This document shows, in pieces, positions 997 through 37,408 of a stretch of DNA of 37,408 nucleotides; positions within the stretch are counted from its first letter, which is position 1, and every line of letters begins with the position of its first letter. The DNA is taken from positions 1-37,408 of IMG/VR virus record IMGVR_UViG_3300037424_003033, one strand, 5' to 3'. Source of the DNA: a virus. Lineage: Duplodnaviria; Caudoviricetes. Both the position numbers and the translations under genes were made by a program. The notes below the pieces were generated by a model. That model made no database searches. It had not been told where the DNA came from and saw only the letters and a program-made list of their open reading frames with translations.

Positions 997-1105
997 GTTC
1001 AAACAACAGGCAATCGATGAGCCGCTCCAGTGGCGCGGTGACCTGCTCCCTGAGCATGTCCATGACGGTTATGACAATGGCTTGTCGGTCTTCTGGTTCA
1101 AGCAT
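731..1105 (-). CDS. Antisense moron-like hypothetical protein (124 aa, MLEPEDRQAIVITV...)
   Basis: ATG at 1105-1103 preceded by AAGGGAGGG SD; extended -10 upstream; plausible helical protein sequence. Confidence 0.65.
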   Translation of the reverse strand: MLEPEDRQAIVITVMDMLREQVTAPLERLIDCLLFELMSSDSIDSSRLAARLEELWSAMPEPERDGHGGRLYRRYLVLLTTLRDDPQRFLSSAPHTGERTAHVVPPDWFRGVIQGGREEGPDQG

Positions 1106-1106
1106 C

Positions 1107-1170
1107 GGGAACCCTCCCTTGGGTGTTGGTTTGTTGGGGAACGGCCATCGTACCAAGGGGTGGGGTTCCC
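1107..1170 (-). promoter_or_regulatory. Extended -10 promoter (TGGTACGAT) within an inverted repeat that covers the SD of the antisense gene
   Basis: Reverse complement of 1147-1155 is TGGTACGAT; IR arms GGGAACCCTCCCTTGG (1107-1122) and CCAAGGGGTGGGGTTCCC (1153-1170). Confidence 0.5.
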
Positions 1171-1189
1171 ACCTATTTGGGGGTGCGGC

Positions 1190-3199
1190 ATGACGGAGCG
1201 CGCCTACACCATCACCGAGATTGCCCAGGCGCTGGGCGTGACCCGCAAGAGCGCCCACATGCGGGCCCAGCGCGAGAGCTGGCCCTTCGAGGAGTCCACC
1301 GGCCGGGGCGGCAAGCGGCGGCTGTTCCCACTGGAGGGGTTGCCGGAAGAGGTTCAGGTGAAGCTGCTCCATGCCTACGGTGAGCCGGAGGCGACGGACG
1401 ACGCCCCTCCGGTGGAGTTGAGCGACGTGCCGGCACAGCGTCAGCGACCGGTCCATAGCGAGGAGGCGATGTCGGCCCGCTGGGAGCGGCTGCGCGACGC
1501 ACAACGGGAGAAGGCCGAGGCCAAGTGCGCGGCCATCCGGGCGGCGGTGGCGGCGCATGAGCGCAGCGGCGTGCCCCTGACCGAGGCGCTGCGCCATGCC
1601 GCCGAGGGTACGCCCTGGAGCTATGCCACCCTGCGGGACGCCTATTACGGCAAGGGGTTAAAGGCCGGACTGGTGGACTACCCGCGCCATCTGTGGGCGC
1701 TGGTGTTGGCGCCTGGGCACCTGGGGCGCGTGGCCACCGCCGAGTGCGACCCGACGGCCTGGGCGGCCTGGAAGGCGGACTACCTGCGCCAGGAGGAGCC
1801 GCCGCTGGAGATGACCTATCGCACCCTGCAACGGATGGCCAATACCCACGGCTGGACCATCCCTGGCAGCCCGAAGTCGCTCAAGCGCCGGCTGGACAAG
1901 GAGATGAGCTACCGGGCGCAGGTGTTCATGCGCAAGGGGCCCCAGGCGTTGGCGCGGATGTTCCCGCCGCAGCGGCGCAACCGCACTGCCCTGCACGCCC
2001 TGGAGCTGGTGAACGCCGACGGCCATACCTTCGATGTGTTCGTGAAGTGGCCAGATGGCGAGATCGGGCGGCCCATCCTGGTGGGTTGGCAGGATATCCG
2101 CTCCGGCAAGATCCTCTCCTGGCGCATCGACAAGACCGAGAACTCCGACGGCTACCGTCTCTCCTTTGCCGACCTGCTGCGCCAGTACGGCATCCCCGGC
2201 GGAGCCATCCTGGACAACGGGCGCGGCGCGGCCAGCAAGATCCTGACCGGCGGCATGTCCACGCGCTTTCGCTTCCCTCGCAAGGAGGAGGAGCCGCACG
2301 GCCTGTTCACCCACCTGCTGGGCGAGGAAAACACTCACTTCGCCAAGCCCTACCACGGCCAGTCCAAACCCATCGAGCGCGCCTTCCGCGACCTGGCCAC
2401 CGACGTGGCGAAGGATAAGCGGCTGGAGGGTGCCTACACCGGCAAGAACCCGCAGGCCAAGCCTGAGAACTACGGCAGCCGGGCGGTGGAACTGGAGCGC
2501 TTCCTGGAGGTTCTGGCCGACGGCATCCGCCAGCACAACGCCCGGCGCGGACGGCGCGGCATGGGGATGGATGGGCGCAGCTTCGACGAGGTGTTCAGCG
2601 AGAGCATGGAGGCGAGCGCCCACCTGATTCAGCGGCCCACCAAGGCCCAGCTGTCCCGCTGGCTGCTGGCGGCGGTGGATATCACGGCCAACAAGCTGAC
2701 CGGGGCGGTAAAGGTCCACGGCAACGAGTACGTCTCCGACGCGCTGACCGAGGCCCTGGCCGGCCGCTCCGCCAAGGAGCGCCGGGTGGTGGTGCGGCTC
2801 GACCCGGAAGACCTGCGCCTGCCGGTGATGGTGGAGACCCTGGACGGGCGACTCATCGGCGAGGCCAAGCTCAACGGCCCGGTGAACTACCTCGACAAGC
2901 AGGCCGCCCGCCAGCGGGCGCGGGACGAGCGGCGCCTGGAGCGCCTGGCCAAAGAGGAGGCGACCATTCACCAGCGGATGGACCGCGCCGAGTACGAGCG
3001 GCTGCTGGATGCCGCCGCCGAGGCGGATCGCGAGGAGCTGGGGCAGGCCGAGCAAGCAGACTCGAAGGTGGTGCGCGGGGCCTTCAAAAAGGAGCGGCGC
3101 GACTACGACGAGGACGGCGACCAGATGGTGGCCAACGGCGACAGCCTGATCCTGGCCGTCGCCGAGCAGTGGCGAAGCAAGAGCATTTTGGAGGATTGA
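1190..3199 (+). CDS. MuA-like DDE transposase (669 aa)
   Basis: N-terminal Mu-type HTH (YTITEIAQALGVTRKSAHMRAQRESW); DDE residues in VNADGHTFD, ILDNGRG, SKPIERAF; ATG 1190 preferred over TTG 1082. Confidence 0.95.
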   Translation: MTERAYTITEIAQALGVTRKSAHMRAQRESWPFEESTGRGGKRRLFPLEGLPEEVQVKLLHAYGEPEATDDAPPVELSDVPAQRQRPVHSEEAMSARWERLRDAQREKAEAKCAAIRAAVAAHERSGVPLTEALRHAAEGTPWSYATLRDAYYGKGLKAGLVDYPRHLWALVLAPGHLGRVATAECDPTAWAAWKADYLRQEEPPLEMTYRTLQRMANTHGWTIPGSPKSLKRRLDKEMSYRAQVFMRKGPQALARMFPPQRRNRTALHALELVNADGHTFDVFVKWPDGEIGRPILVGWQDIRSGKILSWRIDKTENSDGYRLSFADLLRQYGIPGGAILDNGRGAASKILTGGMSTRFRFPRKEEEPHGLFTHLLGEENTHFAKPYHGQSKPIERAFRDLATDVAKDKRLEGAYTGKNPQAKPENYGSRAVELERFLEVLADGIRQHNARRGRRGMGMDGRSFDEVFSESMEASAHLIQRPTKAQLSRWLLAAVDITANKLTGAVKVHGNEYVSDALTEALAGRSAKERRVVVRLDPEDLRLPVMVETLDGRLIGEAKLNGPVNYLDKQAARQRARDERRLERLAKEEATIHQRMDRAEYERLLDAAAEADREELGQAEQADSKVVRGAFKKERRDYDEDGDQMVANGDSLILAVAEQWRSKSILED

Positions 3200-3200
3200 C

Positions 3201-3482
3201 ATGCAACAGAGCGAGATCCGCGACCGCATCAACGCGACGGTCGATGAGTGCGAATGGATTGTGGATACGCGCCGCCGGTGGCTGGAGGGGCTGGAAGCCG
3301 GGAAGTATTCCGAGCGCCTGCTGCAGGCCGGGGTGAGCAAGCGGGAGCTGATGGCCGCCTACCGGGCCGAGCTGGAGACCGCGCAACGAGTGATTGACGA
3401 CCTGGAGCCCATTTGTCGGGCGATGGGTTGGGAGAAGCCCGGCGGGGCGGCCACCCCGCCGGACGGTGGAAGCGCTGCATAG
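3201..3482 (+). CDS. Hypothetical protein between A and B
   Basis: GGAGG SD inside the end of the A gene; 93 aa helical ORF. Confidence 0.7.
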   Translation: MQQSEIRDRINATVDECEWIVDTRRRWLEGLEAGKYSERLLQAGVSKRELMAAYRAELETAQRVIDDLEPICRAMGWEKPGGAATPPDGGSAA

Positions 3483-3517
3483 GGCAGCACAACAACAACG
3501 ACCAGGGAGTATAGCAA

Positions 3518-4474
3518 ATGAGTGAAGCATCCGTAATCGCCCTTCACGGGCTCGAAGAAGAACAGACCCTGCGCGACCGCGTGCGGGTGGAAATGGAGAC
3601 CGGCGGCCTGTCCCAGGGCAAGGCGGCCACCGAGATCGGGATCTCCAGCACCGCCCTGTCGCAATGGCTGGCGGAGAAGTACCCCGGCGACATCCCGACC
3701 CTGGAGCGCAAGGTCGCCCGCTGGCTCGACTCGCGCACCGAGCGGGCCAAGCTGGCCGCCACCCTGCCGACCGCGCCGGCCTACGTGGAGCTGCCCACCT
3801 CGCGGCGTATCGCCGCCGGGCTCTCCTACGCCCAGATGGCCGGGGATATCACCGTCATCTACGGCGGGGCCGGCATCAGCAAGACCACCACCGCCAAGGA
3901 GTACGCGGCGGGCCATCCCAATGTGTGGCTGGCCACCATGACCGCCAGCACCAACACCCTCGGCCCCTGCCTGGAGCGGGTGGCGCTGGCCTGCGGGCTG
4001 CGCCCCACCAACACCCGCGCCGCCCGCATCGAGGCCGACCTGGTGGAGCGGCTGGAGGATACCAACGGCCTGCTGATCATCGACGAGGCCCAGCACCTCA
4101 ACACCCGCGCCATCGAGGCCCTGCGCGGCCTGCACGACGCCACCGGCGTGGGGCTCGCCATCATGGGCAACGAGCTGGTCTATGCCCGCATCACCGGCGG
4201 CCGCCGCTCGGCCGAGTTCGCCCAGCTGTTCAGCCGCATCGGCAAGCGGGTGCGGCTGAACCGGCCCACCCAGGCCGACGTGGACGCCCTGCTCTCGGCC
4301 TGGTCCGTCAGCGGCCGGGAGGAGCGCGAAGCCGTGCTCGAGATCGCCCGGCGCCCCGGCGCCCTGCGCGGGGTCACCAAGGCGCTGCGCCTGGCCTCCC
4401 TGTTCGCCCAGGGCGAGAAGGTGCAGCTGCGCCACATCCGCGCCGCCTGGCGTGACCTCGGGGGTGAGGGATGA
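3518..4474 (+). CDS. MuB-like AAA+ transposition ATPase
   Basis: N-terminal HTH, Walker A variant GGAGISKT, Walker B LLIIDEAQHL, AQLFSRIG arginine-finger region; follows the transposase. Confidence 0.93.
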   Translation: MSEASVIALHGLEEEQTLRDRVRVEMETGGLSQGKAATEIGISSTALSQWLAEKYPGDIPTLERKVARWLDSRTERAKLAATLPTAPAYVELPTSRRIAAGLSYAQMAGDITVIYGGAGISKTTTAKEYAAGHPNVWLATMTASTNTLGPCLERVALACGLRPTNTRAARIEADLVERLEDTNGLLIIDEAQHLNTRAIEALRGLHDATGVGLAIMGNELVYARITGGRRSAEFAQLFSRIGKRVRLNRPTQADVDALLSAWSVSGREEREAVLEIARRPGALRGVTKALRLASLFAQGEKVQLRHIRAAWRDLGGEG

Positions 4475-6835: not shown

Positions 6836-7372
6836 ATGCGACAAGTAGTACTGGACACCGAAACCACCGGCCTGGAACCGGCAGAGGGGCACCGCATCAT
6901 CGAGATCGGCGCCGTCGAGCTGCTGGGCGGCCAGCCCACCGGCGAAGAGCTGCGCCTGCTGCTCGACCCGGAGCGGGAGATGGACGCCGACGCCGTGGCC
7001 GTGCATGGCTACCAGTCCGAAGACCTGGCCGGCCGCCCCCGCTTCCGTGACGTGGCCGAGCCCGTGATCGAGTTCCTGCGCGATGCCGAGGTGCTGATCC
7101 ACTTCGCCGAGTTCGACCTGGGATTCATCAACCGGGAGCTGGCCCTGCTCGGCCCCGGCTGGGGCGAGCTGACCGACTACTGCCGCGTGACCTGCACCCG
7201 CGAGCTGGCCATCGGCTTCCTGCTCGAGCTGGCAAGCCACCGCCTGGACGCCCTCTGCGACCACTACGGCATCGACCGCAGTCACCGCGAGCGCCACGGC
7301 GCCCTCATCGACGCCCGCCTGCTGGCGGCGGTCTATGCGGCCATGTGTGCCGGCAAGGGGGTGGCGGCATGA
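6836..7372 (+). CDS. dnaQ: DnaQ (DNA Pol III epsilon)-like DEDDh 3'-5' exonuclease
   Basis: ExoI VVLDTETTG, ExoII HFAEFD, ExoIII HGALIDA, SLDAL-like RLDALCDHYGID; GGGAGG SD. Confidence 0.9.
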   Translation: MRQVVLDTETTGLEPAEGHRIIEIGAVELLGGQPTGEELRLLLDPEREMDADAVAVHGYQSEDLAGRPRFRDVAEPVIEFLRDAEVLIHFAEFDLGFINRELALLGPGWGELTDYCRVTCTRELAIGFLLELASHRLDALCDHYGIDRSHRERHGALIDARLLAAVYAAMCAGKGVAA

Positions 7373-14422: not shown

Positions 14423-15999
14423 TGGACGAGATCCGAATCCTGGGGCCGGACGGGCGCCCCATTCAAAAGAAAGAGCTGACCCGCGAGGTGGCCCGCGCCT
14501 CCCTCACCGGCGTGCGCCAGGTGTGGAATGCCGAGTCGATGGTCTCGGGCCTGACTCCTGACCGCCTGGCGATGCTGCTCCAGTCCGCCGCCGAGGGCGA
14601 TCACCGCGACTACCTGACCCTGGCCGAGGAGATGGAGGAGCGCGACCTGCACTATGCCTCCGTGCTCGGCACCCGCAAGCGGGCCATCTCCGGCCTGGAG
14701 CCGACCGTCGAGGCGGCCGCCGAGGATGCCCAGGCGGTGAAACTGGCCGACGCGGTGCGCGAGCTGGCGCGCCGACCGGAGTTCGGCGAGATGGTGGACG
14801 ACTGCCTGGACGCCCTGGGCAAGGGCTACAGCGCCGTGGAGATCCTGTGGGACCGCAGCGGCCGCCAGTGGTGGCCGGAGCGCTATGTCTGGCGCGACCC
14901 GCGCTTCTTCCTGTTCGACCGCGAGGACGGCCACACCCTGCGCCTGCTGGACGAGGCCGACGCCTTCAATGGGCTGCCCCTGCCACCCTACAAGTTCCTG
15001 GTGCATGTGCCGCGGCTCAAGTCCGGCCTGCCGGTGCGCGGCGGGCTGGCCCGCCTGGTGGCCATCGCCTACATGTGCAAGGCCTACAGCATCACCGACT
15101 GGGTGGCCTTCGCCGAGGTGTTCGGCATGCCGCTGCGCTTGGGCCGCTACGGGCCGAGTGCGAGCGAGACCGACATCCAGACCCTGATCAGCGCCGTGGC
15201 CAACCTGGGCACCGATGCCGCCGCCGTGCTGCCGGACTCCATGCGGATCGACTTCCAGGAGGCGGGCAACCGCTCCGACGGGGCGGACCTGTTCGAGCGC
15301 CTGGCCACCTTCCTGGACAAGCAGATCAGCAAGGCGGTGCTGGGCCAGACCGCCACCACCGAAGGTACTCCCGGCAAGCTCGGCAACGAGGACGCCCAGG
15401 ACGAGGTGCGCCAGGACATCCTCAAGGCCGACGCCCGCCAGCTGGAGAACACCCTCAACCGCGACCTGGTGCGCCCGTTCATCGACCTGAACTTCGGCCC
15501 CCAGGCGGTCTATCCGCGCCTGCGCCTGCCGGTCTCCGAGCCCGAGGATCTGGCCGCCCTGGTCGATGCACTGGACAAGCTGGTGCCGCGAGGGCTCAAG
15601 GTGGAGCAGTCGGTGGTGCGCGACAAGCTGGGCCTGCCGGACCCGGACGAAAGCGCCGACCTGCTGTTGCCGGCGCCAGCCGCCACCGACCCAGCCATGA
15701 ATCGCGAACACAAACCCGGCTGCAGCTGCTGCCGCGACACAGCGGTCAACCGGGAGACCGACCCGGTAACCGATGCCCTGGACGAGCTGGAGGCCGAGGG
15801 CCTGGCGGAGTGGGAGGAGCAGCTCGCGCCCATCTTCGACCCGGTGCGCCGCCTGGCCGAGGAGGCCGAGAGCTTCGATGAGTTCCTGGCCGGCCTGCCG
15901 GGGCTGCGCGAGGAGATGGACAGCGAGGAGCTGGTCAAGCGCCTGGCGCTCGCCACCTTCAAGGCCCGCGGCATGGGGGATGCCACCGATGAGGGGTAA
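14422..15999 (+). CDS. Portal protein (Mu gp29, DUF935)
   Basis: EEMEERDLHY, FAEVFGMPLRLGRY, ISKAVLGQT motifs. Confidence 0.92.
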   Translation: MDEIRILGPDGRPIQKKELTREVARASLTGVRQVWNAESMVSGLTPDRLAMLLQSAAEGDHRDYLTLAEEMEERDLHYASVLGTRKRAISGLEPTVEAAAEDAQAVKLADAVRELARRPEFGEMVDDCLDALGKGYSAVEILWDRSGRQWWPERYVWRDPRFFLFDREDGHTLRLLDEADAFNGLPLPPYKFLVHVPRLKSGLPVRGGLARLVAIAYMCKAYSITDWVAFAEVFGMPLRLGRYGPSASETDIQTLISAVANLGTDAAAVLPDSMRIDFQEAGNRSDGADLFERLATFLDKQISKAVLGQTATTEGTPGKLGNEDAQDEVRQDILKADARQLENTLNRDLVRPFIDLNFGPQAVYPRLRLPVSEPEDLAALVDALDKLVPRGLKVEQSVVRDKLGLPDPDESADLLLPAPAATDPAMNREHKPGCSCCRDTAVNRETDPVTDALDELEAEGLAEWEEQLAPIFDPVRRLAEEAESFDEFLAGLPGLREEMDSEELVKRLALATFKARGMGDATDEG

Positions 16000-16744
16000 C
16001 CTGCCGGCGCCGCACTACCAGGACGAGGCGGCCACCCTCTACCAGGGCGAGGCCCTGGCGCTGCTGCGCGCCCTGCCGGCCAACAGCGTGGACGCCCTGA
16101 TCACCGACCCGCCCTACTCCTCGGGCGGGCAGTTCCGCGGCGACCGTACCCAGGCGACCAGCGCCAAGTATCAGAACAGCGAGGTGCGCCGGCTCTACCC
16201 GGAGTTCGCGGGCGACACCCGCGACCAGCGCGGCTACTTCGCCTGGTGGACCCTGTGGGGCACCGAGTGCCTGCGGGTGCTCAAGCCCGGCGCCCCGGTG
16301 GTGGTGTTCACCGACTGGCGCCAGTACCCGGTCACCTCCGACGCCTTCCAGGTGGCGGGCTTCATCTGGCGCGGTACCGCCGTGTGGGACAAGACCCGCG
16401 GCTGCCGTCCCGCCCTGGGGCGCTACCGCCAGCAGGCCGAGTTCCTGCTGTGGGGCTCGTCCGGGCCGATGGCGCGCAACGAGCAGGTGGGCGCCCTGCC
16501 TGGCGTGTTCACCCATGCACCCCATGCCGGCGGCAAGCACCACATTGCCGGCAAGCCGCTGCCGCTGATGGAGGAGGTGGTGGCCATCTGCCCGTCGGGC
16601 GGGGTGGTGCTGGACCCGTTCGCCGGCTCGGCCTCCACCGGGGTGGCGTGCCGACGCACCGGCCGGCGCTTTATCGGCATCGAGCTGACGCCGGAGTACT
16701 CGCTGGTGGCGGCTGCCCGGCTGGCTGCGGCAGGGGGGGGGTGA
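15989..16744 (+). CDS. Orphan N6-adenine/N4-cytosine DNA methyltransferase (beta-type motif order)
   Basis: ITDPPY catalytic motif precedes VLDPFAGSAST SAM-binding motif and FIGIEL. Confidence 0.9.
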   Translation: MRGNLPAPHYQDEAATLYQGEALALLRALPANSVDALITDPPYSSGGQFRGDRTQATSAKYQNSEVRRLYPEFAGDTRDQRGYFAWWTLWGTECLRVLKPGAPVVVFTDWRQYPVTSDAFQVAGFIWRGTAVWDKTRGCRPALGRYRQQAEFLLWGSSGPMARNEQVGALPGVFTHAPHAGGKHHIAGKPLPLMEEVVAICPSGGVVLDPFAGSASTGVACRRTGRRFIGIELTPEYSLVAAARLAAAGGG

Positions 16745-30190: not shown

Positions 30191-31264
30191 ATGGCGTTTA
30201 ACCGACCGACCCTGCCGCAGCTGATTGACCGCATCGCGGCGGATATCGAGAGCCGCCTGGCCGGCACCGACCCGCGCCTGCGCCGGGCGGTGCTGGGGGT
30301 GCTGGCGCGCACCCTGGCGGGTGCGGCGCATGGGCTGCACGGGCATCTGGACTGGCTGGCCAAGCAGATTGTGCCGGACACGGCAGAGGCGGAGATTCTG
30401 GACCGCTGGGCGAGCTGGTGGGGCGTGAGCCGCAAGGCGGCCGCGGCGGCCACTGGCGAGGTGACCTTCGCCGGCAACGAGGGGGCGACCATCCCGGCCG
30501 GCACGAGCGTGCAGCGCTCCGATGGCATCGAGTACACCACCGATGCCGAGGCCACCATCACCGGCGGCACGGCCACGGTGGCGGTGACTGCCGCCAGCGC
30601 CGGGCAGGATACGAGCGCGGCGGCCGGGGTGTCGCTGTCGCTGGTCTCGCCGGTGGCAGGGGTGCAGTCGGCGGCCACGGTGGCGGCGGGCGGCCTGACC
30701 GGCGGCGCCGACGAGGAGACCGATGCGGCCCTGCGCGAGCGGCTGCGCTCGCGGGTGCAGAACCCGCCCCACGGTGGCAGCGAGGCCGACTATGAGGCCT
30801 GGGCGCTGGAGGTGGAGGGGGTGACCCGTGTGTGGGTGTTCCCGCAGTGGACCGGCGACGGCACGGTGGGGCTGTTCTTCGTGCGCGACGACGACGCGGA
30901 CTTCATCCCTGACGCGGCCGAGGTGGCGGCGGTGCAGGACTACGTGGACGCGCTGCGCCCGGTGACGGCGGCGCTGACCTGTTACGCGCCCACGGCGGTG
31001 GCGGTGGATATGACCATTCAGCTCTCGCCCAATACGGCCAGCGTGCAGGCGGCGGTGCAGGCGGAGCTGGAGGATCTGTTTCGGCGCGAGGCGGGGGTGG
31101 AAGACGGGGCCGGCTCCGGCACGGTGCTGCTCTCCCATATCCGCGAGGCCATCAGCCGGGCCGAGGGCGAGACCGACCATGTGCTGGTGAGCCCGGCCGC
31201 GGACGTGACCCTCTCGGCGGGCGAGATCGCCACCGTCGGCAACCTGACCTTCCAGGCGCTCTAA
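30191..31264 (+). CDS. Baseplate wedge J-like protein (Mu gp47)
   Basis: FNRPTL, GGADEETD, PPHGGSEADYEAWALEV. Confidence 0.93.
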   Translation: MAFNRPTLPQLIDRIAADIESRLAGTDPRLRRAVLGVLARTLAGAAHGLHGHLDWLAKQIVPDTAEAEILDRWASWWGVSRKAAAAATGEVTFAGNEGATIPAGTSVQRSDGIEYTTDAEATITGGTATVAVTAASAGQDTSAAAGVSLSLVSPVAGVQSAATVAAGGLTGGADEETDAALRERLRSRVQNPPHGGSEADYEAWALEVEGVTRVWVFPQWTGDGTVGLFFVRDDDADFIPDAAEVAAVQDYVDALRPVTAALTCYAPTAVAVDMTIQLSPNTASVQAAVQAELEDLFRREAGVEDGAGSGTVLLSHIREAISRAEGETDHVLVSPAADVTLSAGEIATVGNLTFQAL

Positions 31265-31265
31265 C

Positions 31266-31859
31266 ATGCCCGGCGCGAACGAATACAAGGCCCAGCTGCA
31301 GGCGCTGCTCCCGCCGGGGCGGCTGTGGGATGCGCTGCGCGAGGGCGGCAGCCTGGCCGACCAGCTGCTGGCGGCGCTGGCGGTGGAGTTCGCCCGCGTG
31401 GACGAGCGCGGCGATGCGCTGCTGGACGAGACCGACCCGCGCACGGTGTACGAGCTGCTGACCGAGTGGGAGGCCTTCGCCGGCCTGCCCGACACCTGCA
31501 CCGGGGAGCTGACCACCATCAGCCAGCGCCGCGAGGCGCTGCTGGAGCGGCTGACCTCGACCGGCGACCAGTCCGCCGCCTACTTCATCGCCCTGGCCGA
31601 GCGGTTGGGCTACACGGTGACTATCACCGAGTACACCCCGCCCTATGTTGGCCAGGCCGTGGCCGGCGATGCGCTCACCTACGGCGGCTGGGTGCATGCC
31701 TTCACCGTCAACGCGCCGGAGACCACCGTCACCGACGCCGTGGCCGGCGGCGCCTCGGCCGGCGAGCCGCTGCGCTCTTGGGGCAATGCCGTGCTGGAGT
31801 GCGCCATCCGGCGCCGCAAGCCGGCCCATTCTGTTGTGCTGTTTACCTACGGAGGATAA
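31266..31859 (+). CDS. Baseplate protein Mu gp48 (DUF2313/YmfQ)
   Basis: LQALLPPG, ELLTEWE, GLPD, LECAIRRRKPAH. Confidence 0.9.
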   Translation: MPGANEYKAQLQALLPPGRLWDALREGGSLADQLLAALAVEFARVDERGDALLDETDPRTVYELLTEWEAFAGLPDTCTGELTTISQRREALLERLTSTGDQSAAYFIALAERLGYTVTITEYTPPYVGQAVAGDALTYGGWVHAFTVNAPETTVTDAVAGGASAGEPLRSWGNAVLECAIRRRKPAHSVVLFTYGG

Positions 31860-31862
31860 CCA

Positions 31863-32195
31863 ATGATCGGGGCACCCAAGCACCTGAACACCAAAGACGA
31901 CTACGAGTACGCCCATGCGCTGGCGACGGAGGGGAAGATCCCCGCTGATGCCATGCGCAAACAGTGGGAGGGGTTGCTGGCTACGCGCCAGGTGTACGCC
32001 TACGACCGCGACCTGGGCGCCACCGAAGACCCGGACGGCCCGGAGCCGGAGTACAGGGTTATCACCGACACTGCCGAGGACGGCACCGAGACGCGCAAGC
32101 AGTACAAGCTGGGGCCAAACCCTGGGGCGGCGATTGATCGCCTTGGCTACACCGTGGCCGAGGTTGAAGCGAAACTGGCAGAGCTGGGAGGTTAA
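31863..32195 (+). CDS. Hypothetical protein upstream of the DGR target
   Basis: GGAGG SD; 110 aa ORF filling the gap between gp48 and the fibre gene. Confidence 0.8.
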   Translation: MIGAPKHLNTKDDYEYAHALATEGKIPADAMRKQWEGLLATRQVYAYDRDLGATEDPDGPEPEYRVITDTAEDGTETRKQYKLGPNPGAAIDRLGYTVAEVEAKLAELGG

Positions 32196-32200
32196 GCGAC

Positions 32201-33433
32201 ATGCAGAAGATTGGAGATGTAGCCGGCAGTAATGCCGACATCAACGACGAGTGGACCAACGGCGACCCGCAGAGCGGCACCCCGGCCACCATTCTGATGG
32301 CCGAGTACCTGAACACGCTGCAGCGTGAGCTGGTGGCCATCGCCGAGCACAACGGCGGCGCCCTGGACCCTGAAAACGACGCGCAGCTCATCAGCGCCAT
32401 CCGTCTGGTGGGACAGCCGGCCGGTGGTGTTTCGCTGATGGGTGAGATTGCCAAGGGCACCGGCGACACCCTCGACCTGCCCGAGGGGCAAATCAACATC
32501 GGCGGCAACGGCCTGGGCTACCTGCTGACTGCCCAGACCGACTGGGACCCGACGGCAGCCGAGAACCACGACGGCACCGTGGTGGGTCTGACTCTGGGCG
32601 ATAACGTCTATATCTACGCCGTGCAGCAGGCGTCGGGTATCGCCAAGTGGCTCGCCTCCATGAATAGCACCGTGCCGACCGGCTACACCAGCACCAACAG
32701 CCGCAAGGTGGGCGGCTTCCACTACGGCCGCTACCGCCCCCTGGCGAACCGCTACGACGCGGCCTATACGCCCCTGGCGCAGATCCTGCCGAACAGCTGC
32801 TGGGACCTTCAGCACCGCCCCAAGTGCGACCCCACCGGCATGGCGGAGGTGATCCCTGGGCGCCTGTGGGCGGATATCTACCTCAACAGCGAGGGTGCCG
32901 GCACCTGGCCGGAGACCGTCCCGGTCAGCGCCTACGGCGCCACCCCGCTCTCCGGCACTGAGGGCTATTCCCGCTACCTGGACCTCCCGGTCCTGGCTGC
33001 CAACGCCGGCAAGCGCCTGCCCTACCTGCACGAGTTCTACGTCTACGCCGACGGCGCGCCCCAGGGTAATGACGGCAACAACGACACCGCCTGGAGCGCC
33101 ACCACCAACAGCGGCCGCACCACCACCGGGGCGGTGGCCAAGTCTGTGGCCTGTTCCGGTATCGTGGATGCCGTGGGCAACCTGTGGGAGCCCTGTCTCG
33201 ACCTCTACGACGACGGCAACGCCGCCTGGGCGTGGGATACCACCATCCTGGATAACGGCAAGGATGCGGCCCAGGCTCGCGGTGATCTCTACCACTCCCG
33301 TTGGCGCTTCTGGGTGGCCGGGGGCAATTGGGGCAACGGCGTCCGCTGCGGCTCGCGCTGCGCGCACTCCGACGTCAGCCCGGAGAACGTGAGCACGAGT
33401 ACGGGTCTGCGCTGCGTCTGTGACTCCCTGTGA
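32201..33433 (+). CDS. mtd: Receptor-binding/tail fibre protein, Mtd-like DGR target
   Basis: Mu-type fibre N-terminus (GDPQSGTPAT...LNTLQRELV...QLISAI); Mtd-like motifs SRKVGGFHY, WDLQHRP, WADIYL, GKRLP, GNLWE; C-terminal GGxW...GSR...GLRCVCD CLec-type VR. Confidence 0.9.
   Translation: MQKIGDVAGSNADINDEWTNGDPQSGTPATILMAEYLNTLQRELVAIAEHNGGALDPENDAQLISAIRLVGQPAGGVSLMGEIAKGTGDTLDLPEGQINIGGNGLGYLLTAQTDWDPTAAENHDGTVVGLTLGDNVYIYAVQQASGIAKWLASMNSTVPTGYTSTNSRKVGGFHYGRYRPLANRYDAAYTPLAQILPNSCWDLQHRPKCDPTGMAEVIPGRLWADIYLNSEGAGTWPETVPVSAYGATPLSGTEGYSRYLDLPVLAANAGKRLPYLHEFYVYADGAPQGNDGNNDTAWSATTNSGRTTTGAVAKSVACSGIVDAVGNLWEPCLDLYDDGNAAWAWDTTILDNGKDAAQARGDLYHSRWRFWVAGGNWGNGVRCGSRCAHSDVSPENVSTSTGLRCVCDSL
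33300..33424 (+). repeat. DGR variable repeat (VR)
   Basis: 125-nt ungapped match to 33826-33950 with 10 mismatches, all opposite TR adenines. Confidence 0.97.
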
Positions 33434-33792
33434 CCATGAGCCCTGATGAGGCCCCGCGGCAGCGGGGTCTTGTTCTTTTGAACAAGACCGAGAAGCTGAT
33501 CGCCGACCTTGGGCCGGTCCTCGACAAGATCCCCAGGCATCAACGCTACCGCTACGGTGCCAGGCTGGAAGATGCCCTGTGGGAGCTGGTGAGCCGCATC
33601 ATCGAGGCGGCGGCCAGCGGCCAGAAAAGCAAGGTGTACCGAGCGGACGAGCAAGTCCGCTTTATTCATTCCCTGCTGAGGCATGGCGCCGAGCGAAAGC
33701 TGATAGGCGCCAAGCGCGTGGGCGAGGCGGCGCAGCAGCTCAAGGAGGTGGGCGCCATGATTGGCGCCTGGCGTCAGCGGTTCAAGCAGTAA
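33430..33792 (+). CDS. avd: DGR accessory variability determinant (Avd, four-helix bundle); start GTG 33430 or ATG 33436
   Basis: About 120 aa, basic and helical; IPRHQRYRYG and EVGAMIGAW motifs; between target and TR. Confidence 0.9.
   Translation: MTMSPDEAPRQRGLVLLNKTEKLIADLGPVLDKIPRHQRYRYGARLEDALWELVSRIIEAAASGQKSKVYRADEQVRFIHSLLRHGAERKLIGAKRVGEAAQQLKEVGAMIGAWRQRFKQ
33449..33470 (+). promoter_or_regulatory. DGR target-recognition hairpin downstream of the VR
   Basis: AGGCCCCGC-GGCA-GCGGGGTCT: 6 perfect GC pairs, extended through one G-T; 4-nt loop; 15 nt after the target stop. Confidence 0.7.
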
Positions 33793-34128
33793 CCGAATAA
33801 GGGGTGGTGTGGGTTTCGGCGTCTTGTTGGCGCTTCTGGATGGCCGGGGGCAATTGGGACAACGGCGTCCACTGCGGCTCGCGCTGCGCGAACTCCAACA
33901 ACAACCCGGAGAACGTGAACACGAATACGGGTCTGCGCTGCGTCTGTGACCACCTATTTTGCAGAGAGGACGGCAACGGCGTTGCCGTCACCTAGCATCC
34001 CTGTAACAGGGGGTCAGCCACATCATCCCGGCCCTGGCAGTGCCAGGCCGAATACGACAGGCCGGGCGGCGCGAGTAGCGCAAGCGAAAGCCCCGCCAGG
34101 TCGCCCAAACAAGAAGAACGGAGCAAGG
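33793..34128 (+). ncRNA. DGR RNA (5' flank, TR and structured spacer)
   Basis: Perfect 9-bp hairpin 33969-33989, further stems in 33998-34100, 12-bp pairing of 33801-33812 with 34018-34029. Confidence 0.7.
33826..33950 (+). repeat. DGR template repeat (TR)
   Basis: AAC-rich intergenic copy of the VR (9 AAY codons in the VR frame) between avd and the RT. Confidence 0.97.
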
Positions 34129-35157
34129 ATGGGAGCCAAGCACAAACGGCTTATTGAGCGCATCATCGACTGGGACAATCTGGAGCGAGCCCACCGCCTG
34201 GCGCGGCGCGGCAAGCGTGACCGCTTCGAGGTGGGGCTGTTCGAGGCGAACCTCTGGGAGGAACTGGGCACCCTACAGATGGAGATGCTGTGGGGCACCT
34301 ATCGCCCCGGCCGGTACCGGGCCTTCCTGGTGTATGAGCCCAAGCGCCGGGAGATACTGGCGGCGCCCTACCGGGACCGGGTGGCGCAGCATGCCATCTG
34401 TGCCCTCTGCGGCCCGATATGGGACAAGGGCATGATTTACGACAGCTATGCCTGCCGGCCAGGCAAAGGCTCCCATGCCGGCGCCGCCAGGGTAGAGCGG
34501 TGGCTCCGCGGAATGGTGGCCACCGGCCCAGCGTGGGTGGTCAAGATGGACGTTTCCAAATACTTCGCCAGCATCCGGCACCAGCTCGCCAAAGAGGCGG
34601 TGCGGGACAAGATAAGCTGCCCCGACACCCTCCGGCTGCTCGACCGCATCATCGACAGCACCGCCGACCCGGACGACCCGGACCCGACCGGCATCCCCGT
34701 GGGCAACCTGACCAGCCAATGGATCGCCAACCTGGTGGGCAACCGAATCGACCAGTGGGCCAAGCGGGAGCTGCGGCTACGGCGCTACGCCCGCTACATG
34801 GACGATATGGTGGCCATTGTGCGCACCAAAGAGGAGGCCCTGGCCATCCGTGACGCTTTCGCCAACCAACTGGCCAGCATGGGCATGCGCTTCAGCAAGA
34901 GCAGCGTCCTGCCGGCCAGTCGCGGGGTCAACTTCCTGGGCTACCGGATATGGCCCCACAAGCGCCTGCTGCGGCAGGATTCAGTCCGGCGCATCAAGCG
35001 CAACCTGCGGGCCATGCAGTGGGAGTACGCCAGAGGCCTGATAGGCCCCGAGAAGGTCCGCCAGCGCATCGCCGCCTGGCTGGCCCACGCCGACTACGCC
35101 CAGGCCGATAACCTGAAGCGTAAAGTGCTAGGTGGAGTGGTGTTTAAGAGGGGGTAA
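34129..35157 (+). CDS. brt: DGR reverse transcriptase (342 aa)
   Basis: EPKRREI, YRDRVAQHA, KMDVSKYFASI, GIPVGNLTSQ (DGR-type GxxxSQ), YARYMDD, FLGY; no maturase or endonuclease tail. Confidence 0.96.
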   Translation: MGAKHKRLIERIIDWDNLERAHRLARRGKRDRFEVGLFEANLWEELGTLQMEMLWGTYRPGRYRAFLVYEPKRREILAAPYRDRVAQHAICALCGPIWDKGMIYDSYACRPGKGSHAGAARVERWLRGMVATGPAWVVKMDVSKYFASIRHQLAKEAVRDKISCPDTLRLLDRIIDSTADPDDPDPTGIPVGNLTSQWIANLVGNRIDQWAKRELRLRRYARYMDDMVAIVRTKEEALAIRDAFANQLASMGMRFSKSSVLPASRGVNFLGYRIWPHKRLLRQDSVRRIKRNLRAMQWEYARGLIGPEKVRQRIAAWLAHADYAQADNLKRKVLGGVVFKRG

Positions 35158-35173
35158 ATTCGGCTTAAAATGC

Positions 35174-35221
35174 TTTCGCCATTCAATTGGCGAAGTTTCG
35201 CCAAACAAGTGGCGCGTTACA
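35174..35221 (+). repeat. Prophage right end: two tandem 22-bp transposase-binding sites and terminal CA
   Basis: TTTCGCCATTCAATTGGCGAAG (35174-35195), TTTCGCCAAACAAGTGGCGCGT (35196-35217), then TACA; next 5 bp CCGGA fit the Mu target consensus NYSRN. Confidence 0.8.
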
Positions 35222-35260
35222 CCGGAGGCGATCAGGAAATTCGCCGAAGGGGAATTGTAG
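35222..35260 (+). pseudogene. 3' remnant of an interrupted host gene, possibly purN (PEAIRKFAEGEL*)
   Basis: 12 codons plus TAG directly after the phage end; resembles the recalled PurN C-terminus EHxxYPxAIxxFAEGxL. Confidence 0.45.
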
Positions 35261-35516
35261 GGATGAATCCCATCATTCGTAGGGCGTGTGGGCGTGAGGG
35301 CGTGAGGGCGTGTAGGATGGGATGCATCCCATCAAACAGTCAAACCTGACGATGGGATGCATCCCATCCTACGATCCCAGCATCTCCTCCAGCTCGTAGG
35401 TTGGGGTGAGCCCGCGAACCCCAACGGATATTTGCCGGATTCATGGTCATGTTGGGGTTCGTTCCTCACCCCAACCTACGGGCTCTCACGACCTCACGTC
35501 CTCACGTCCTCACGCC
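35257..35516. repeat. Host GTAG-family REP/REPIN cluster
   Basis: Perfect inverted 22-mers 35312-35333/35351-35372; second inverted pair 35396-35425/35451-35479; outer inverted 8-bp tandem arrays 35282-35313 and 35486-35516. Confidence 0.85.
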
Positions 35517-37408
35517 TTTAACTCCTCCAACTCCTCCCACCGCACATAGGCCTTGGCCAGCTCCTGCTCCACCGCCTCGAGCCGCTCGCGGCTGTTGGCG
35601 ATCGCCGCCGCCTCCTGCTGGTAGAAGGCGGGATCGCCCATGGTGGCGTGCAGCGCTTCCACCTCCGCCTCCAGCTCCTCGATGCGCTTTGGCAGGGACT
35701 CGAGTTCACGCTGGTCCTTGTAGCTGAGCTTGCTGCGCCTGGCCGCGGGTTTGCTCTCCTCGTTCTGCACGGCAGGAGCCAGCTTTGGCTTCTCCGCCGC
35801 GGTCCGTTCCGTCTCCTGCCGGCGCTGGCGCAGCCAGTCGTCGTAGCCGCCGACATACTCGTTGAGCCGCCCATCGCCCTCGAAGGCGATTGTACTGGTC
35901 ACCACGTTGTTGAGAAAGGCGCGGTCGTGGCTCACCAGCAGCAGGGTGCCGGGGTATTCGAGCAGCAGCTCCTCGAGCAGGTCGAGGGTCTCGACGTCCA
36001 GGTCGTTGGTCGGTTCGTCCATCACCAGCAGGTTGGAGGGTTTGGTGAAGAGCTTGGCCAGCAGCAGGCGGTTGCGCTCGCCGCCGGAGAGCGAGCGCAC
36101 CGGGCTGCGCGCCCGCTCCGGGGTGAAGAGGAAATCCTGCAGGTAGCCCATGATGTGCTTGCTCTGGCCGTTGATCTCGACCCGGTCGCTGCCCTGAGCG
36201 ACGTTGTCCAGCACAGAGGCCTCCTCGTCGAGCTGCGCCCGGTGCTGGTCGAAGTAGGCGATCTCCAGCTTGGTGCCGAGCTTCACCGAGCCCTGCTGCG
36301 GCACCAGCTTGCCCAGCAGTACCTGCAGCAGGGTGGTCTTGCCCGAGCCGTTGGGACCTAGGATACCGACCTTGTCGCCGCGCATGATGGCGGTGGAGAA
36401 GTCGCGGAACAGGGTCCTGCCGTCGTAGGCAAAACCGATATCGGTCGCCTCGATCACCACCTTGCCGGAACGCTCCGCCCCCTGCGCGGCGATCCGCGCC
36501 TTGCCGCCGCGTTCGCGCCGTTCGCTGCGCTCGTCGCGCATCGCCTTGAGGGCGCGCACCCGCCCCTCGTTGCGGGTGCGCCGCGCCTTGATCCCCTGGC
36601 GGATCCACGCCTCTTCCTGCGCCAGGCGCTTGTCGAACAGGGCGTTCTGCTGCGCCTCGGCCTCCAGCGCCTCCTCCTTGCGCCTGAGGTAGGTCTCGTA
36701 GTCGCCGGGCCAGGAGGTGAGCTTGCCGCGATCGAGCTCAATGATGCGGGTGGCCAGGCGCTGCAGAAACATGCGGTCGTGGGTGATGAACAGCAGGGTC
36801 CCGTTCCAGCCAAGCAGGAACTCCTCCAGCCAGGCGATGGACTCGATATCGAGGTGGTTGGTCGGCTCATCGAGCAGCAGCAGGTTCGGCTCGCGCACCA
36901 GTTCGCGCGCCAGCAGCACGCGGCGCTTGAGTCCCCCGGAGAGGGCGGCAAAGTCGGTCTCCGCCGGCAGGCCGAGGCGCGAGACAACAGACTCCACCTT
37001 CTGGTTCAGCAGCCAGCCGTCGGCCGCCTCCAGCTCGTGCTGGATGCGCTCGAGCTTGCCCATCAGCTTCTCGTCACCATCGCCCAGTTGCTGGCTGATG
37101 TGGTGATACTCGGCGAGCAGCGCGCCGGTCCTGCCGAGGCCCTCGGCGATCACGTCGAACACCGCGCCGCTGATGTCGTGCGGCACCTCCTGGGTCAACC
37201 GCGCCACCTTCAGCCCCTGCTCGCACACCACCTCACCGCCGTCGGCCTGCAGCTCGCCGTTGAGCAGCTTCATCAGGGTCGACTTGCCGGTGCCGTTGCG
37301 CCCGACCAGGCAGAGCCGCTCGCCCGGCTCGATCTGCAGGTTGATGCCGTCGAGCAGCGGCGGTCCGCCGAAGGCCAGGGTCACGTTACGCAGCGTCATC
37401 AACGCCAT
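35510..37408 (-). CDS. uup: ABC-F family ATPase Uup (host gene)
   Basis: Two ABC domains (GRNGTGKST/LSGG/DEPTNHLD; GPNGSGKTT/LSGGE/DEPTNDLD), WIRQGIKARRTRNEGRVRALK linker, KLSYKDQREL C-terminal domain. Confidence 0.95.
   Translation of the reverse strand: MALMTLRNVTLAFGGPPLLDGINLQIEPGERLCLVGRNGTGKSTLMKLLNGELQADGGEVVCEQGLKVARLTQEVPHDISGAVFDVIAEGLGRTGALLAEYHHISQQLGDGDEKLMGKLERIQHELEAADGWLLNQKVESVVSRLGLPAETDFAALSGGLKRRVLLARELVREPNLLLLDEPTNHLDIESIAWLEEFLLGWNGTLLFITHDRMFLQRLATRIIELDRGKLTSWPGDYETYLRRKEEALEAEAQQNALFDKRLAQEEAWIRQGIKARRTRNEGRVRALKAMRDERSERRERGGKARIAAQGAERSGKVVIEATDIGFAYDGRTLFRDFSTAIMRGDKVGILGPNGSGKTTLLQVLLGKLVPQQGSVKLGTKLEIAYFDQHRAQLDEEASVLDNVAQGSDRVEINGQSKHIMGYLQDFLFTPERARSPVRSLSGGERNRLLLAKLFTKPSNLLVMDEPTNDLDVETLDLLEELLLEYPGTLLLVSHDRAFLNNVVTSTIAFEGDGRLNEYVGGYDDWLRQRRQETERTAAEKPKLAPAVQNEESKPAARRSKLSYKDQRELESLPKRIEELEAEVEALHATMGDPAFYQQEAAAIANSRERLEAVEQELAKAYVRWEELEELKA

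What the first reader, a model, noticed from the sequence alone, without database searches (positions are those of the whole stretch)
32201..35221. Complete DGR in place of the gin/G-segment/mom module of a transposable phage
Seen: target-VR, hairpin, avd, TR, spacer and RT are intact and contiguous, and the RT stop is only 64 nt from the terminal CA. VR and TR align ungapped over 125 nt with 10 differences, all at TR adenines (VR 33314, 33333, 33345, 33365, 33371, 33374, 33375, 33378, 33393, 33399). Established: this is the signature of mutagenic retrohoming, and Mu changes host range at this locus by Gin inversion. Inference: a two-state switch is replaced by continuous hypermutation in a genome that copies itself by transposition, so sibling copies could diversify each other in trans. 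DGRs are known, including in some transposable gut phages, so any novelty lies in this lineage and architecture.
Basis: partly seen in the sequence, partly recalled or inferred. Interest (0 to 1): 0.9.

Follow-up and report, generated by a model that had tools for sequence, protein, structure and literature searches.

The report
Active hypermutation cassette in Mu-like prophage
A Mu-like prophage carries an intact diversity-generating retroelement that has rewritten adenine positions at the tip of a gene for its likely host-binding tail protein into at least three different versions; the arrangement is real but already known from other Mu-like phages, and none of the relatives examined carries the Gin switch it was thought to replace.

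Summary
Observation confirmed. VR 33300-33424 and TR 33826-33950 align ungapped over 125 nt, and all 10 differences face TR adenines. Mtd-like target, GRNA hairpin, avd, structured spacer and a YMDD RT are intact, and the phage end lies 64 nt after the RT stop. The element has acted recently: near-identical copies give three VR alleles, and sibling L001 differs at 12 VR sites, all TR-A, with an identical TR.

The cassette occupies the position of Mu's S/U/gin/com/mom module. But 0 of 39 capsid-nearest relatives carry a Gin-type recombinase, and phage B23 has one plain fibre there. The cassette likely displaced a fixed fibre, not a two-state switch. It is mobile: its RT clade mixes transposable and integrase phages, and two different phages share it at 99.4%.

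It is not new. Published Mu-like phage YPCBV-1 has the same cassette (RT 81% identical) at the same place; Mushu, hankyphage and BalMu-1 are further cases. This scan noted a similar case before (e1-3695721).

Small extras: a fibre anchor fused to the target, two unexplained changes just upstream of the VR, and YPCBV-1's 'metabolic' ORF53 is really the DGR target.

The parts
1082..4474 (+). MuA transposase and MuB ATPase of the prophage that carries the cassette
   Evidence: PF02914 E=6e-53, PF09039, PF09299; PF09077 E=5e-27
30191..31859 (+). Baseplate wedge gp47 (J) and gp48, the last conserved Mu-type tail genes before the cassette
   Evidence: PF04865, PF10076; 41% and 32% identical to Mu gp47 and gp48
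31863..32195 (+). 110-aa ORF of no known family that travels with the cassette; predicted fibre adaptor or chaperone (inference)
   Evidence: No Pfam, NCBIfam or PHROG hit; no usable Atlas hit by features; homologue beside the target in 26 of 27 loci examined, 23 aligned
32201..33433 (+). DGR target, 410 aa: N-terminal tail-fibre anchor (about aa 12-70) fused to an Mtd-like body with a C-terminal CLec/FGE-type domain
   Evidence: PHROG tail-fibre hits aa 12-70 and phrog_11262 aa 129-410; Mtd E=4e-20 over aa 127-410; top five Foldseek hits are Mtd, E 5e-13 to 4e-11, on a model of mean pLDDT 57
33300..33424 (+). Variable repeat (VR), codons 368-408 of the target
   Evidence: three alleles in near-identical phage copies
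33425..33433 (+). IMH-like 3' boundary, where VR and TR diverge just after the shared GC-rich end
   Evidence: the last shared bases resemble the BPP-1 VR end; function inferred
33449..33470 (+). GC-rich DNA hairpin/cruciform, 9 pairs (one G-T), loop GGCA (GRNA), 24 nt after the VR and inside the 5' end of avd
   Evidence: Lowest-energy fold of the 48 nt after the VR in 24 of 25 loci, siblings included; consensus of 7-10 bp, GRNA loop, 4-34 nt from VR (PMC3240598)
33430..33792 (+). avd (accessory variability determinant)
   Evidence: NF033474 101 bits, cut-off 80; PF22296; phrog_3206
33826..33950 (+). Template repeat (TR): 25 adenines in 16 codons, about 5e14 possible peptides, no stop reachable
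   Evidence: identical in sibling L001
33951..34128 (+). Structured spacer RNA between TR and RT
   Evidence: z = -3.0; 14 of 38 consensus pairs show a compensatory change across 15 loci; invariant UGACC/GGUCA pairing between TR 3' end and spacer
34129..35157 (+). DGR reverse transcriptase, 342 aa, YMDD
   Evidence: BPP-1 Brt structure 8ub7 E=2e-65, against E=2e-17 for the best group II intron RT; DGR side of the tree
35158..35221 (+). Right end of the prophage, ending CGCGTTACA
   Evidence: Similar motif 18-64 nt after the RT stop in 11 of 12 loci examined, window included; junctions in runs X2-X4
35222..37408 (.). Host DNA: last 12 codons of a PurN-like gene cut by the insertion, palindromic repeats, and uup (35510-37408, minus strand)
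   Evidence: Translation against a PurN C-terminus, by eye; NF050005; nearest named Uup relatives are uncultured Gammaproteobacteria at about 77-80%

Best explanation
This is an intact BPP-1-type diversity-generating retroelement at the right end of a Mu-like prophage, and it has rewritten adenine-templated positions in the last 41 codons of an Mtd-like protein that likely forms the phage's receptor-binding tail tip. Inferred from BPP-1: an avd-TR-spacer RNA is copied by the RT-Avd complex, adenines are miscopied, and the cDNA replaces the VR at the IMH/GRNA-hairpin site while the TR stays fixed, so each event yields a new predicted binding surface and occasionally a new host specificity. Shown: the A-only difference pattern, three VR alleles on near-identical phage copies, insertion of the phage at different host sites, and the same cassette lineage in transposable and integrase phages. 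Inferred: the 3.3-kb unit (110-aa ORF, target, avd, TR, RT) is a portable receptor-binding module that entered a gin-less Mu-like lineage by exchange at the tail-fibre position, displacing a fixed fibre gene; here the fibre's baseplate anchor is fused to the target.
For: 10 of 10 VR/TR differences at TR-A. L001, 99.8% identical over 8,371 nt: 12 of 16 differences lie in the 125-nt VR, all at TR-A, TR identical. Runs X2/X3 carry a third allele: 14 of 15 listed differences at TR-A, out of 17 on the contig, 2 not shown. Other sibling pairs with identical TR: 14 of 14 and 17 of 17 VR differences at TR-A. Across 24 loci with unbiased boundaries, 260 of 269 differences face TR-A, where A is 17% of TR bases. 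The RT lies in a 21-row clade (100/99) next to Brt (94/92), apart from four group II intron RTs (100/100). Target matches Mtd. Mobility: identity to YPCBV-1 is 81/83/70% for RT/Avd/target but 36-52% for the adjoining baseplate, with no capsid hit; to B23 it is 71% for the capsid with no DGR. L049 (MuA) and L050 (integrase) align only over 3.1 kb, at 99.4%. Only 1 of 39 capsid-nearest relatives has an RT, 34% identical, from another DGR.
Against: The alleles are consensus contigs from different samples. They show that diversification happened recently, not that it is running now; no within-population read data were seen. Receptor binding and tropism switching are inferred from homology to Mtd only. 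YPCBV-1, with the same cassette, infected only its isolation host in a small panel (PMC9769972 passage). The target model is of modest confidence (mean pLDDT 57). Two allele differences (33287, 33299) lie just outside the TR-templated region and are not explained. The direction of cassette transfer was not tested with rooted trees. The contig lacks the left end, so inducibility is unknown.
Confidence: 0.93

Rival explanations
1. One reading: the DGR directly replaced a Gin/G-segment/mom module in this lineage, exchanging a two-state switch for continuous hypermutation.
For: Same position as Mu's S-U-U'-S'-gin-com-mom, between gp48 and the right end; gp47 and gp48 are Mu homologues; no gin or mom in the window. 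Com plus a methyltransferase survive at this place in L002 and L022.
Against: PF00239 in 0 of 47 records (39 capsid-nearest relatives, 7 MuA carriers of the cassette, the window), with the control ringing in 12 of 14. No resolvase among 83 ORFs downstream of gp48 in 20 loci (some truncated or not transposable). B23 has a single fibre. L115 keeps a D12 methyltransferase right after the RT.
Confidence: 0.08
2. The cassette is intact but no longer active; the alleles are relics of earlier activity, sorted among samples.
For: Each run shows one listed VR allele as a contig; no RNA or raw-read data were seen.
Against: Alleles differ at 12 or more VR sites while 8.2 kb outside the VR and its 5' edge differ at 3 sites, so they arose after the copies last shared an ancestor. 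All parts are unbroken, and contigs drop rare variants.
Confidence: 0.12
3. The diversified protein is not the primary receptor-binding fibre but an accessory adhesin or decoration, as proposed for Mushu's Hoc-like target, or an enzyme, as YPCBV-1 ORF53 was annotated.
For: Weak FGE-sulfatase hit (E=3e-4); weak FGE/EgtB fold hits (E 5e-3 or worse); the ORF53 annotation.
Against: Mtd is the best match by sequence and fold by many orders. The N-terminus is a tail-fibre anchor. No other fibre gene lies between gp48 and the phage end.
Confidence: 0.07
4. The repeat pair is an ordinary duplication or assembly artefact and the RT belongs to a group II intron or retron.
For: Best NCBIfam RT hit is the group II intron model, far below its cut-off (111 of 300 bits).
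Against: A-specific differences (P=2e-8); Avd above cut-off; RT tree; one contig of run X1 spans 31800-35251 without a difference, though X1 may be the window's source.
Confidence: 0.01

Closest known systems
Chromohalobacter phage YPCBV-1 (OP380511; PMC9769972, passages seen)
   Same: Mu-like myovirus with the same cassette at the right end: RT 80.9%, Avd 83%, target 70% identical; 126-nt TR/VR with 14 of 14 differences at TR-A; RT stop 63 nt from the terminal CA. The paper names avd and RT as DGR genes.
   Different: Anchor (ORF51), 110-aa homologue (ORF52) and Mtd-like body (ORF53) are separate genes there; here the anchor is fused to the target and the small ORF comes first. Head genes differ (no capsid hit). 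The passages seen describe no TR or VR and call ORF53 an auxiliary metabolic enzyme.
Bordetella phage BPP-1 DGR (mtd-avd-TR-brt), the prototype
   Same: Gene order, Mtd-like target (E=4e-20), RT 40% identical and nearest named relative of this RT clade in the tree, GRNA hairpin, similar VR 3' end.
   Different: BPP-1 has a tRNA attachment site and a separate fibre gene beside mtd; here the phage is transposable and the target carries its own anchor.
Transposable phages with DGRs: Mushu (PMC5883640, passages), hankyphage (PMC6199706 and PMC12135933, passages), BalMu-1 (NC_030945 annotation)
   Same: Replicative transposition together with a DGR, shown active in Mushu and hankyphage; BalMu-1 has tail genes, FGE-type target, avd, TR and RT near its right end (10 of 11 differences at TR-A).
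   Different: Other host phyla; RTs 32-41% identical for Mushu and BalMu-1 and on other branches, so separate acquisitions; Mushu's target is Hoc-like.
Phage Mu Gin/G-segment tropism switch (AF083977 annotation)
   Same: Same genome position; both alter host recognition.
   Different: No shared gene or mechanism; not found in the relatives examined.

Membership tests
Diversity-generating retroelement (BPP-1 type) | RT of the DGR clade with intact catalytic motif | tested here: met
   YMDD; Brt E=2e-65; tree
Diversity-generating retroelement (BPP-1 type) | TR/VR pair differing at TR adenines, VR at the 3' end of a gene, TR intergenic | tested here: met
   10 of 10 at A; 260 of 269 across 24 loci
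Diversity-generating retroelement (BPP-1 type) | Avd accessory gene | tested here: met
   NF033474 above cut-off
Diversity-generating retroelement (BPP-1 type) | CLec-fold target | tested here: met
   Mtd by sequence and by fold on a moderate-confidence model
Diversity-generating retroelement (BPP-1 type) | IMH boundary and GC-rich hairpin with GRNA loop downstream of the VR | tested here: met
   33449-33470, loop GGCA (consensus). In a longer 91-nt fold an overlapping alternative hairpin wins.
Diversity-generating retroelement (BPP-1 type) | VR variable and TR invariant among close copies | tested here: met
   (between samples, consensus contigs only)
Diversity-generating retroelement (BPP-1 type) | RT- and Avd-dependent retrohoming and tropism switching | not testable with these tools
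   Needs mutants and a host
Mu-like transposable phage | MuA DDE transposase and MuB, Mu-type head and tail genes | tested here: met
Mu-like transposable phage | Terminal CA and insertion at varied host sites | tested here: met
Mu-like transposable phage | Left end (TG), repressor and 5-bp target duplication | not testable with these tools
   The contig starts inside the early region; the genome held is the window alone
Mu Gin/G-segment switch | Serine invertase and inverted fibre cassettes | tested here: not met
   No Gin by tblastn or PF00239; no long inverted repeat around the fibre locus among the 25 longest listed

The most novel reading that the evidence does not exclude
This RT clade defines a plug-in hypervariable fibre tip (110-aa adaptor + Mtd-like head + avd + TR + RT) that docks onto Mu-type, P2-type and other tail stubs and is swapped intact between transposable and integrase phages of distant hosts (Halomonas, Bordetella, Pusillimonas, Desulfobulbus, Chromatiales). 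In this phage the anchor has fused to the head, and diversification leaks past the 5' edge of the template (changes at -1 and -13), which would be a template-independent layer of mutagenesis at the cDNA integration junction. Cassette shuffling is well supported; the adaptor role and the 5' leak are speculative.
Probability: 0.12. Interest if true: 0.55.

Novelty: new member of a known kind. Interest (0 to 1): 0.24.

Why it matters
As a system it is ordinary: DGRs in temperate and transposable phages are documented, and this very cassette lineage is published in YPCBV-1. Its value is practical and corrective. It gives natural allele series for a gammaproteobacterial, BPP-1-like DGR outside the gut. 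It shows that the cassette moves as a unit between unrelated phage backbones. It removes the idea that such DGRs descend from a Gin switch in this lineage. It corrects an 'auxiliary metabolic gene' label (SUMF1/EgtB/PvdO) that is really a hypervariable tail protein. Because YPCBV-1 is a cultured phage with a host, DGR action during replicative transposition in a proteobacterium can be tested directly.

Tried and rejected
Second target: a scan of both strands with 30-nt TR pieces (A as wildcard, up to 2 mismatches) found only the VR and the TR itself; the host genome is not held, so host targets are untested. No RNA holder listed. 5'-flank changes as a general trait: not seen in two other sibling pairs (0 within 30 nt upstream in L061/L062 and L048/L049). 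Binding of the 110-aa ORF to the target: no prediction was obtained, so it stays open. Mom search: 0 of 47 without a positive control, weak on its own. Promoter/terminator scan: at chance level. A-tolerant boundary scoring is biased towards adenine; it was replaced by symmetric scoring. L067's integrase may belong to a neighbour, since it has a Mu-type tail and end motif; it is treated as ambiguous. Paper searches: 'BalMu-1' + 'reverse transcriptase' and DGR + invertase + tail fiber + Mu phage gave no papers; the library lacks most subscription journals. No supplements were opened; DGR catalogues in supplements (for example Roux et al., 10.1101/2020.04.01.020958, passages seen) may already list these loci.
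Full report
Observation. The window is a Mu-like prophage: MuA and MuB, Mor, Mu-type portal, protease, capsid, sheath, and baseplate gp44-gp48. Host DNA follows from 35222. The held genome is the window alone and it lacks the left end. The longest direct repeat is a pair 526 nt apart. The VR encodes codons 368-408 of a 410-aa protein. The 25 adenines fall in 16 codons, allow about 5e14 peptides and cannot produce a stop.

Anatomy. The target matches BPP-1 Mtd over residues 127-410 (E=4e-20). An AlphaFold model of modest confidence (mean pLDDT 57) has Mtd structures as its five best fold matches. Residues 12-70 match tail-fibre N-termini (B23 fibre E=2e-7). Avd passes the NCBIfam cut-off. The RT starts at 34129, has YMDD and matches Brt at E=2e-65, against 2e-17 for the best group II intron RT. 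A 9-pair hairpin with loop GGCA lies 24 nt after the VR and is the best fold of that stretch in 24 of 25 loci, siblings included. This fits the 7-10 bp, GRNA-loop, 4-34 nt consensus (PMC3240598, passages). In a longer fold, an overlapping hairpin at 33466-33489 competes with it. The spacer is structured (z=-3.0), and 14 of 38 consensus pairs covary over 15 loci. A 110-aa ORF of no known family precedes the target and accompanies it in 26 of 27 loci examined.

Phage end. The terminal CA is at 35220-35221, 64 nt after the RT stop; a similar motif ends 11 of 12 loci examined, the window included. In runs X2, X3 and X4 the phage contigs stop matching at 35221/35222 and continue with other DNA, and X2 and X3 hold the host side joined to other letters. 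The phage therefore occupies different sites in different samples. In the window it cuts a gene whose last 12 codons resemble the PurN C-terminus (by eye). The host is an uncultured gammaproteobacterium by its Uup relatives; the four runs laid are sediment metagenomes.

Activity. L001 is 99.8% identical over 8,371 nt. Of its 16 differences, 12 lie in the VR, all at TR-A; one is at 33299, directly 5' of the VR; 3 are elsewhere; the TR is identical. Run X4 carries the L001 allele and may not be independent of it. X1 equals the window and may be its source. X2 and X3 carry a third allele: 15 of 17 differences were listed, 14 at TR-A and one at 33287; one further unlisted difference lies somewhere in 33395-33943. 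Two other sibling pairs with identical TRs show 14 of 14 and 17 of 17 VR differences at TR-A, and none within 30 nt upstream. Over 24 loci scored symmetrically, 260 of 269 differences face TR-A (siblings included, one exact duplicate dropped). These are consensus contigs: they date the activity to after the copies diverged, but do not show it running today.

Did it replace gin? The cassette lies where Mu has S, U, U', S', gin, com and mom. From 80 capsid-anchored loci I took the 39 on records of 28 kb or more. Of these, 32 have a Mu transposase domain, none has a resolvase/invertase (control 12 of 14), and 1 has an RT, 34% identical, belonging to another DGR with 17 of 18 differences at TR-A. 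Of 134 ORFs called downstream of gp48 in 23 baseplate-anchored loci, 83 from 20 loci were scanned: none is a resolvase; several are plain fibres, and 5 loci have a methyltransferase, 2 of them with Com. Some of these loci are truncated or not transposable. Mu Gin gave only two weak hits, in distant loci, among the 207 other sequences held. B23, with a 71% identical capsid protein, has one 697-aa fibre and no DGR or gin. L115 keeps a D12 methyltransferase after the RT. The match to gin/G/mom is positional; the likely predecessor was a fixed fibre gene (inference).

A mobile cassette. The RT falls in a 21-row clade (100/99) beside Brt (94/92, long branch), away from four group II intron RTs; Mushu and BalMu-1 RTs branch elsewhere. 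Among 25 records that carry the cassette or its target, 7 have a Mu transposase (the domain search covered 18 of the 25) and 6 a tyrosine integrase, none both. One of the six (L067) is ambiguous, and the other 12 records, mostly incomplete, gave neither. Upstream tails are Mu-type or P2-type. L049 (MuA) and L050 (integrase) align only over the 3.1-kb cassette, at 99.4%. Against YPCBV-1 the cassette is 70-83% identical but the adjoining baseplate only 36-52%. Named carriers include Halomonas saccharevitans, H. salipaludis, Bordetella hinzii, Pusillimonas caeni and Desulfobulbus elongatus. The anchor is fused to the target only in the window's phage and L067; in YPCBV-1, L047, L051, L053, L054, L056, L057, L066, L069, L114 and L202 it is a separate short ORF before the 110-aa gene.

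Mechanism. Shown: parts, order, adenine bias, alleles, ends, mobility. Inferred from BPP-1 and from general knowledge of DGRs: RT-Avd copies the TR RNA, miscopies adenines, and the cDNA replaces the VR at the IMH/hairpin site, changing the binding surface of the tail tip. Trans action among copies made by replicative transposition is plausible, since plasmid-borne avd-TR-brt complements BPP-1, but it is untested. Since siblings share one TR, it would change the rate rather than the repertoire (inference).

Comparison with what is known. YPCBV-1 (PMC9769972; abstract and passages) is a cultured Mu-like phage reported with DGR genes. It carries this cassette at the same place, although its target was labelled an auxiliary metabolic enzyme. 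Mushu and hankyphage are transposable phages with demonstrated DGR activity (passages seen). BalMu-1 has the same layout in its record. I found no paper on DGR versus invertase at this locus in two searches; no supplements were read.

Verdict. A real, intact, recently active DGR and a new member of a known kind. The gin-replacement story is not supported. Residual interest lies in cassette shuffling, the anchor fusion and two unexplained changes at the 5' edge of the VR. Interest 0.24.

Noticed in passing
window 33287 and 33299: Two sibling alleles each have an A where the window has C, 13 nt and 1 nt upstream of the TR-homologous VR, against about 3 differences in 8.2 kb elsewhere. Not opposite a TR adenine; not seen in two other sibling pairs. 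Selection, junction error or an older, longer TR are all open.
   Followed up: partly
window 35222-35260: The prophage appears inserted 12 codons before the stop of a purN-like gene; runs X2 and X3 hold the site without the phage.
   Followed up: partly
L112 (YPCBV-1) 33159-34208: ORF53, published as a SUMF1/EgtB/PvdO auxiliary metabolic gene, is the DGR target: 70% identical to the window's target, VR with 14 of 14 differences at TR-A.
   Followed up: yes
window 33466-33489: A perfect 10-bp hairpin with a TTTT loop overlaps the 3' arm of the GRNA hairpin and wins in a longer fold; it could compete with target recognition.
   Followed up: no
window 15773-16744: An N6/N4 DNA methyltransferase sits between portal and gpF, not at the mom position; a candidate stand-in for Mom-type protection (inference).
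   Followed up: no
L114 2558-11918 and L115 2558-11916: Prophage tail and DGR region 97.5% identical between Bordetella hinzii and Pusillimonas caeni, a cross-genus pair; a D12 methyltransferase follows the RT.
   Followed up: partly
L049 and L050 7801-10903: Only the 3.1-kb cassette is shared (99.4%) between a transposable and an integrase-type phage.
   Followed up: yes
L298 (G042) 591-2294: A second, unrelated DGR (RT 34% identical) at the right end of another Mu-like capsid relative.
   Followed up: partly
window 31863-32195: Conserved 110-aa protein with no family hit; Atlas structure neighbours are unnamed viral proteins, TM 0.5-0.6.
   Followed up: partly
window 6836-7372: An RNase T/DEDD-type exonuclease in the early region (PF00929).
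   Followed up: no
window 35260-35520: Host palindromic repeats of very high copy number in the metagenomes between the purN-like end and uup.
   Followed up: no
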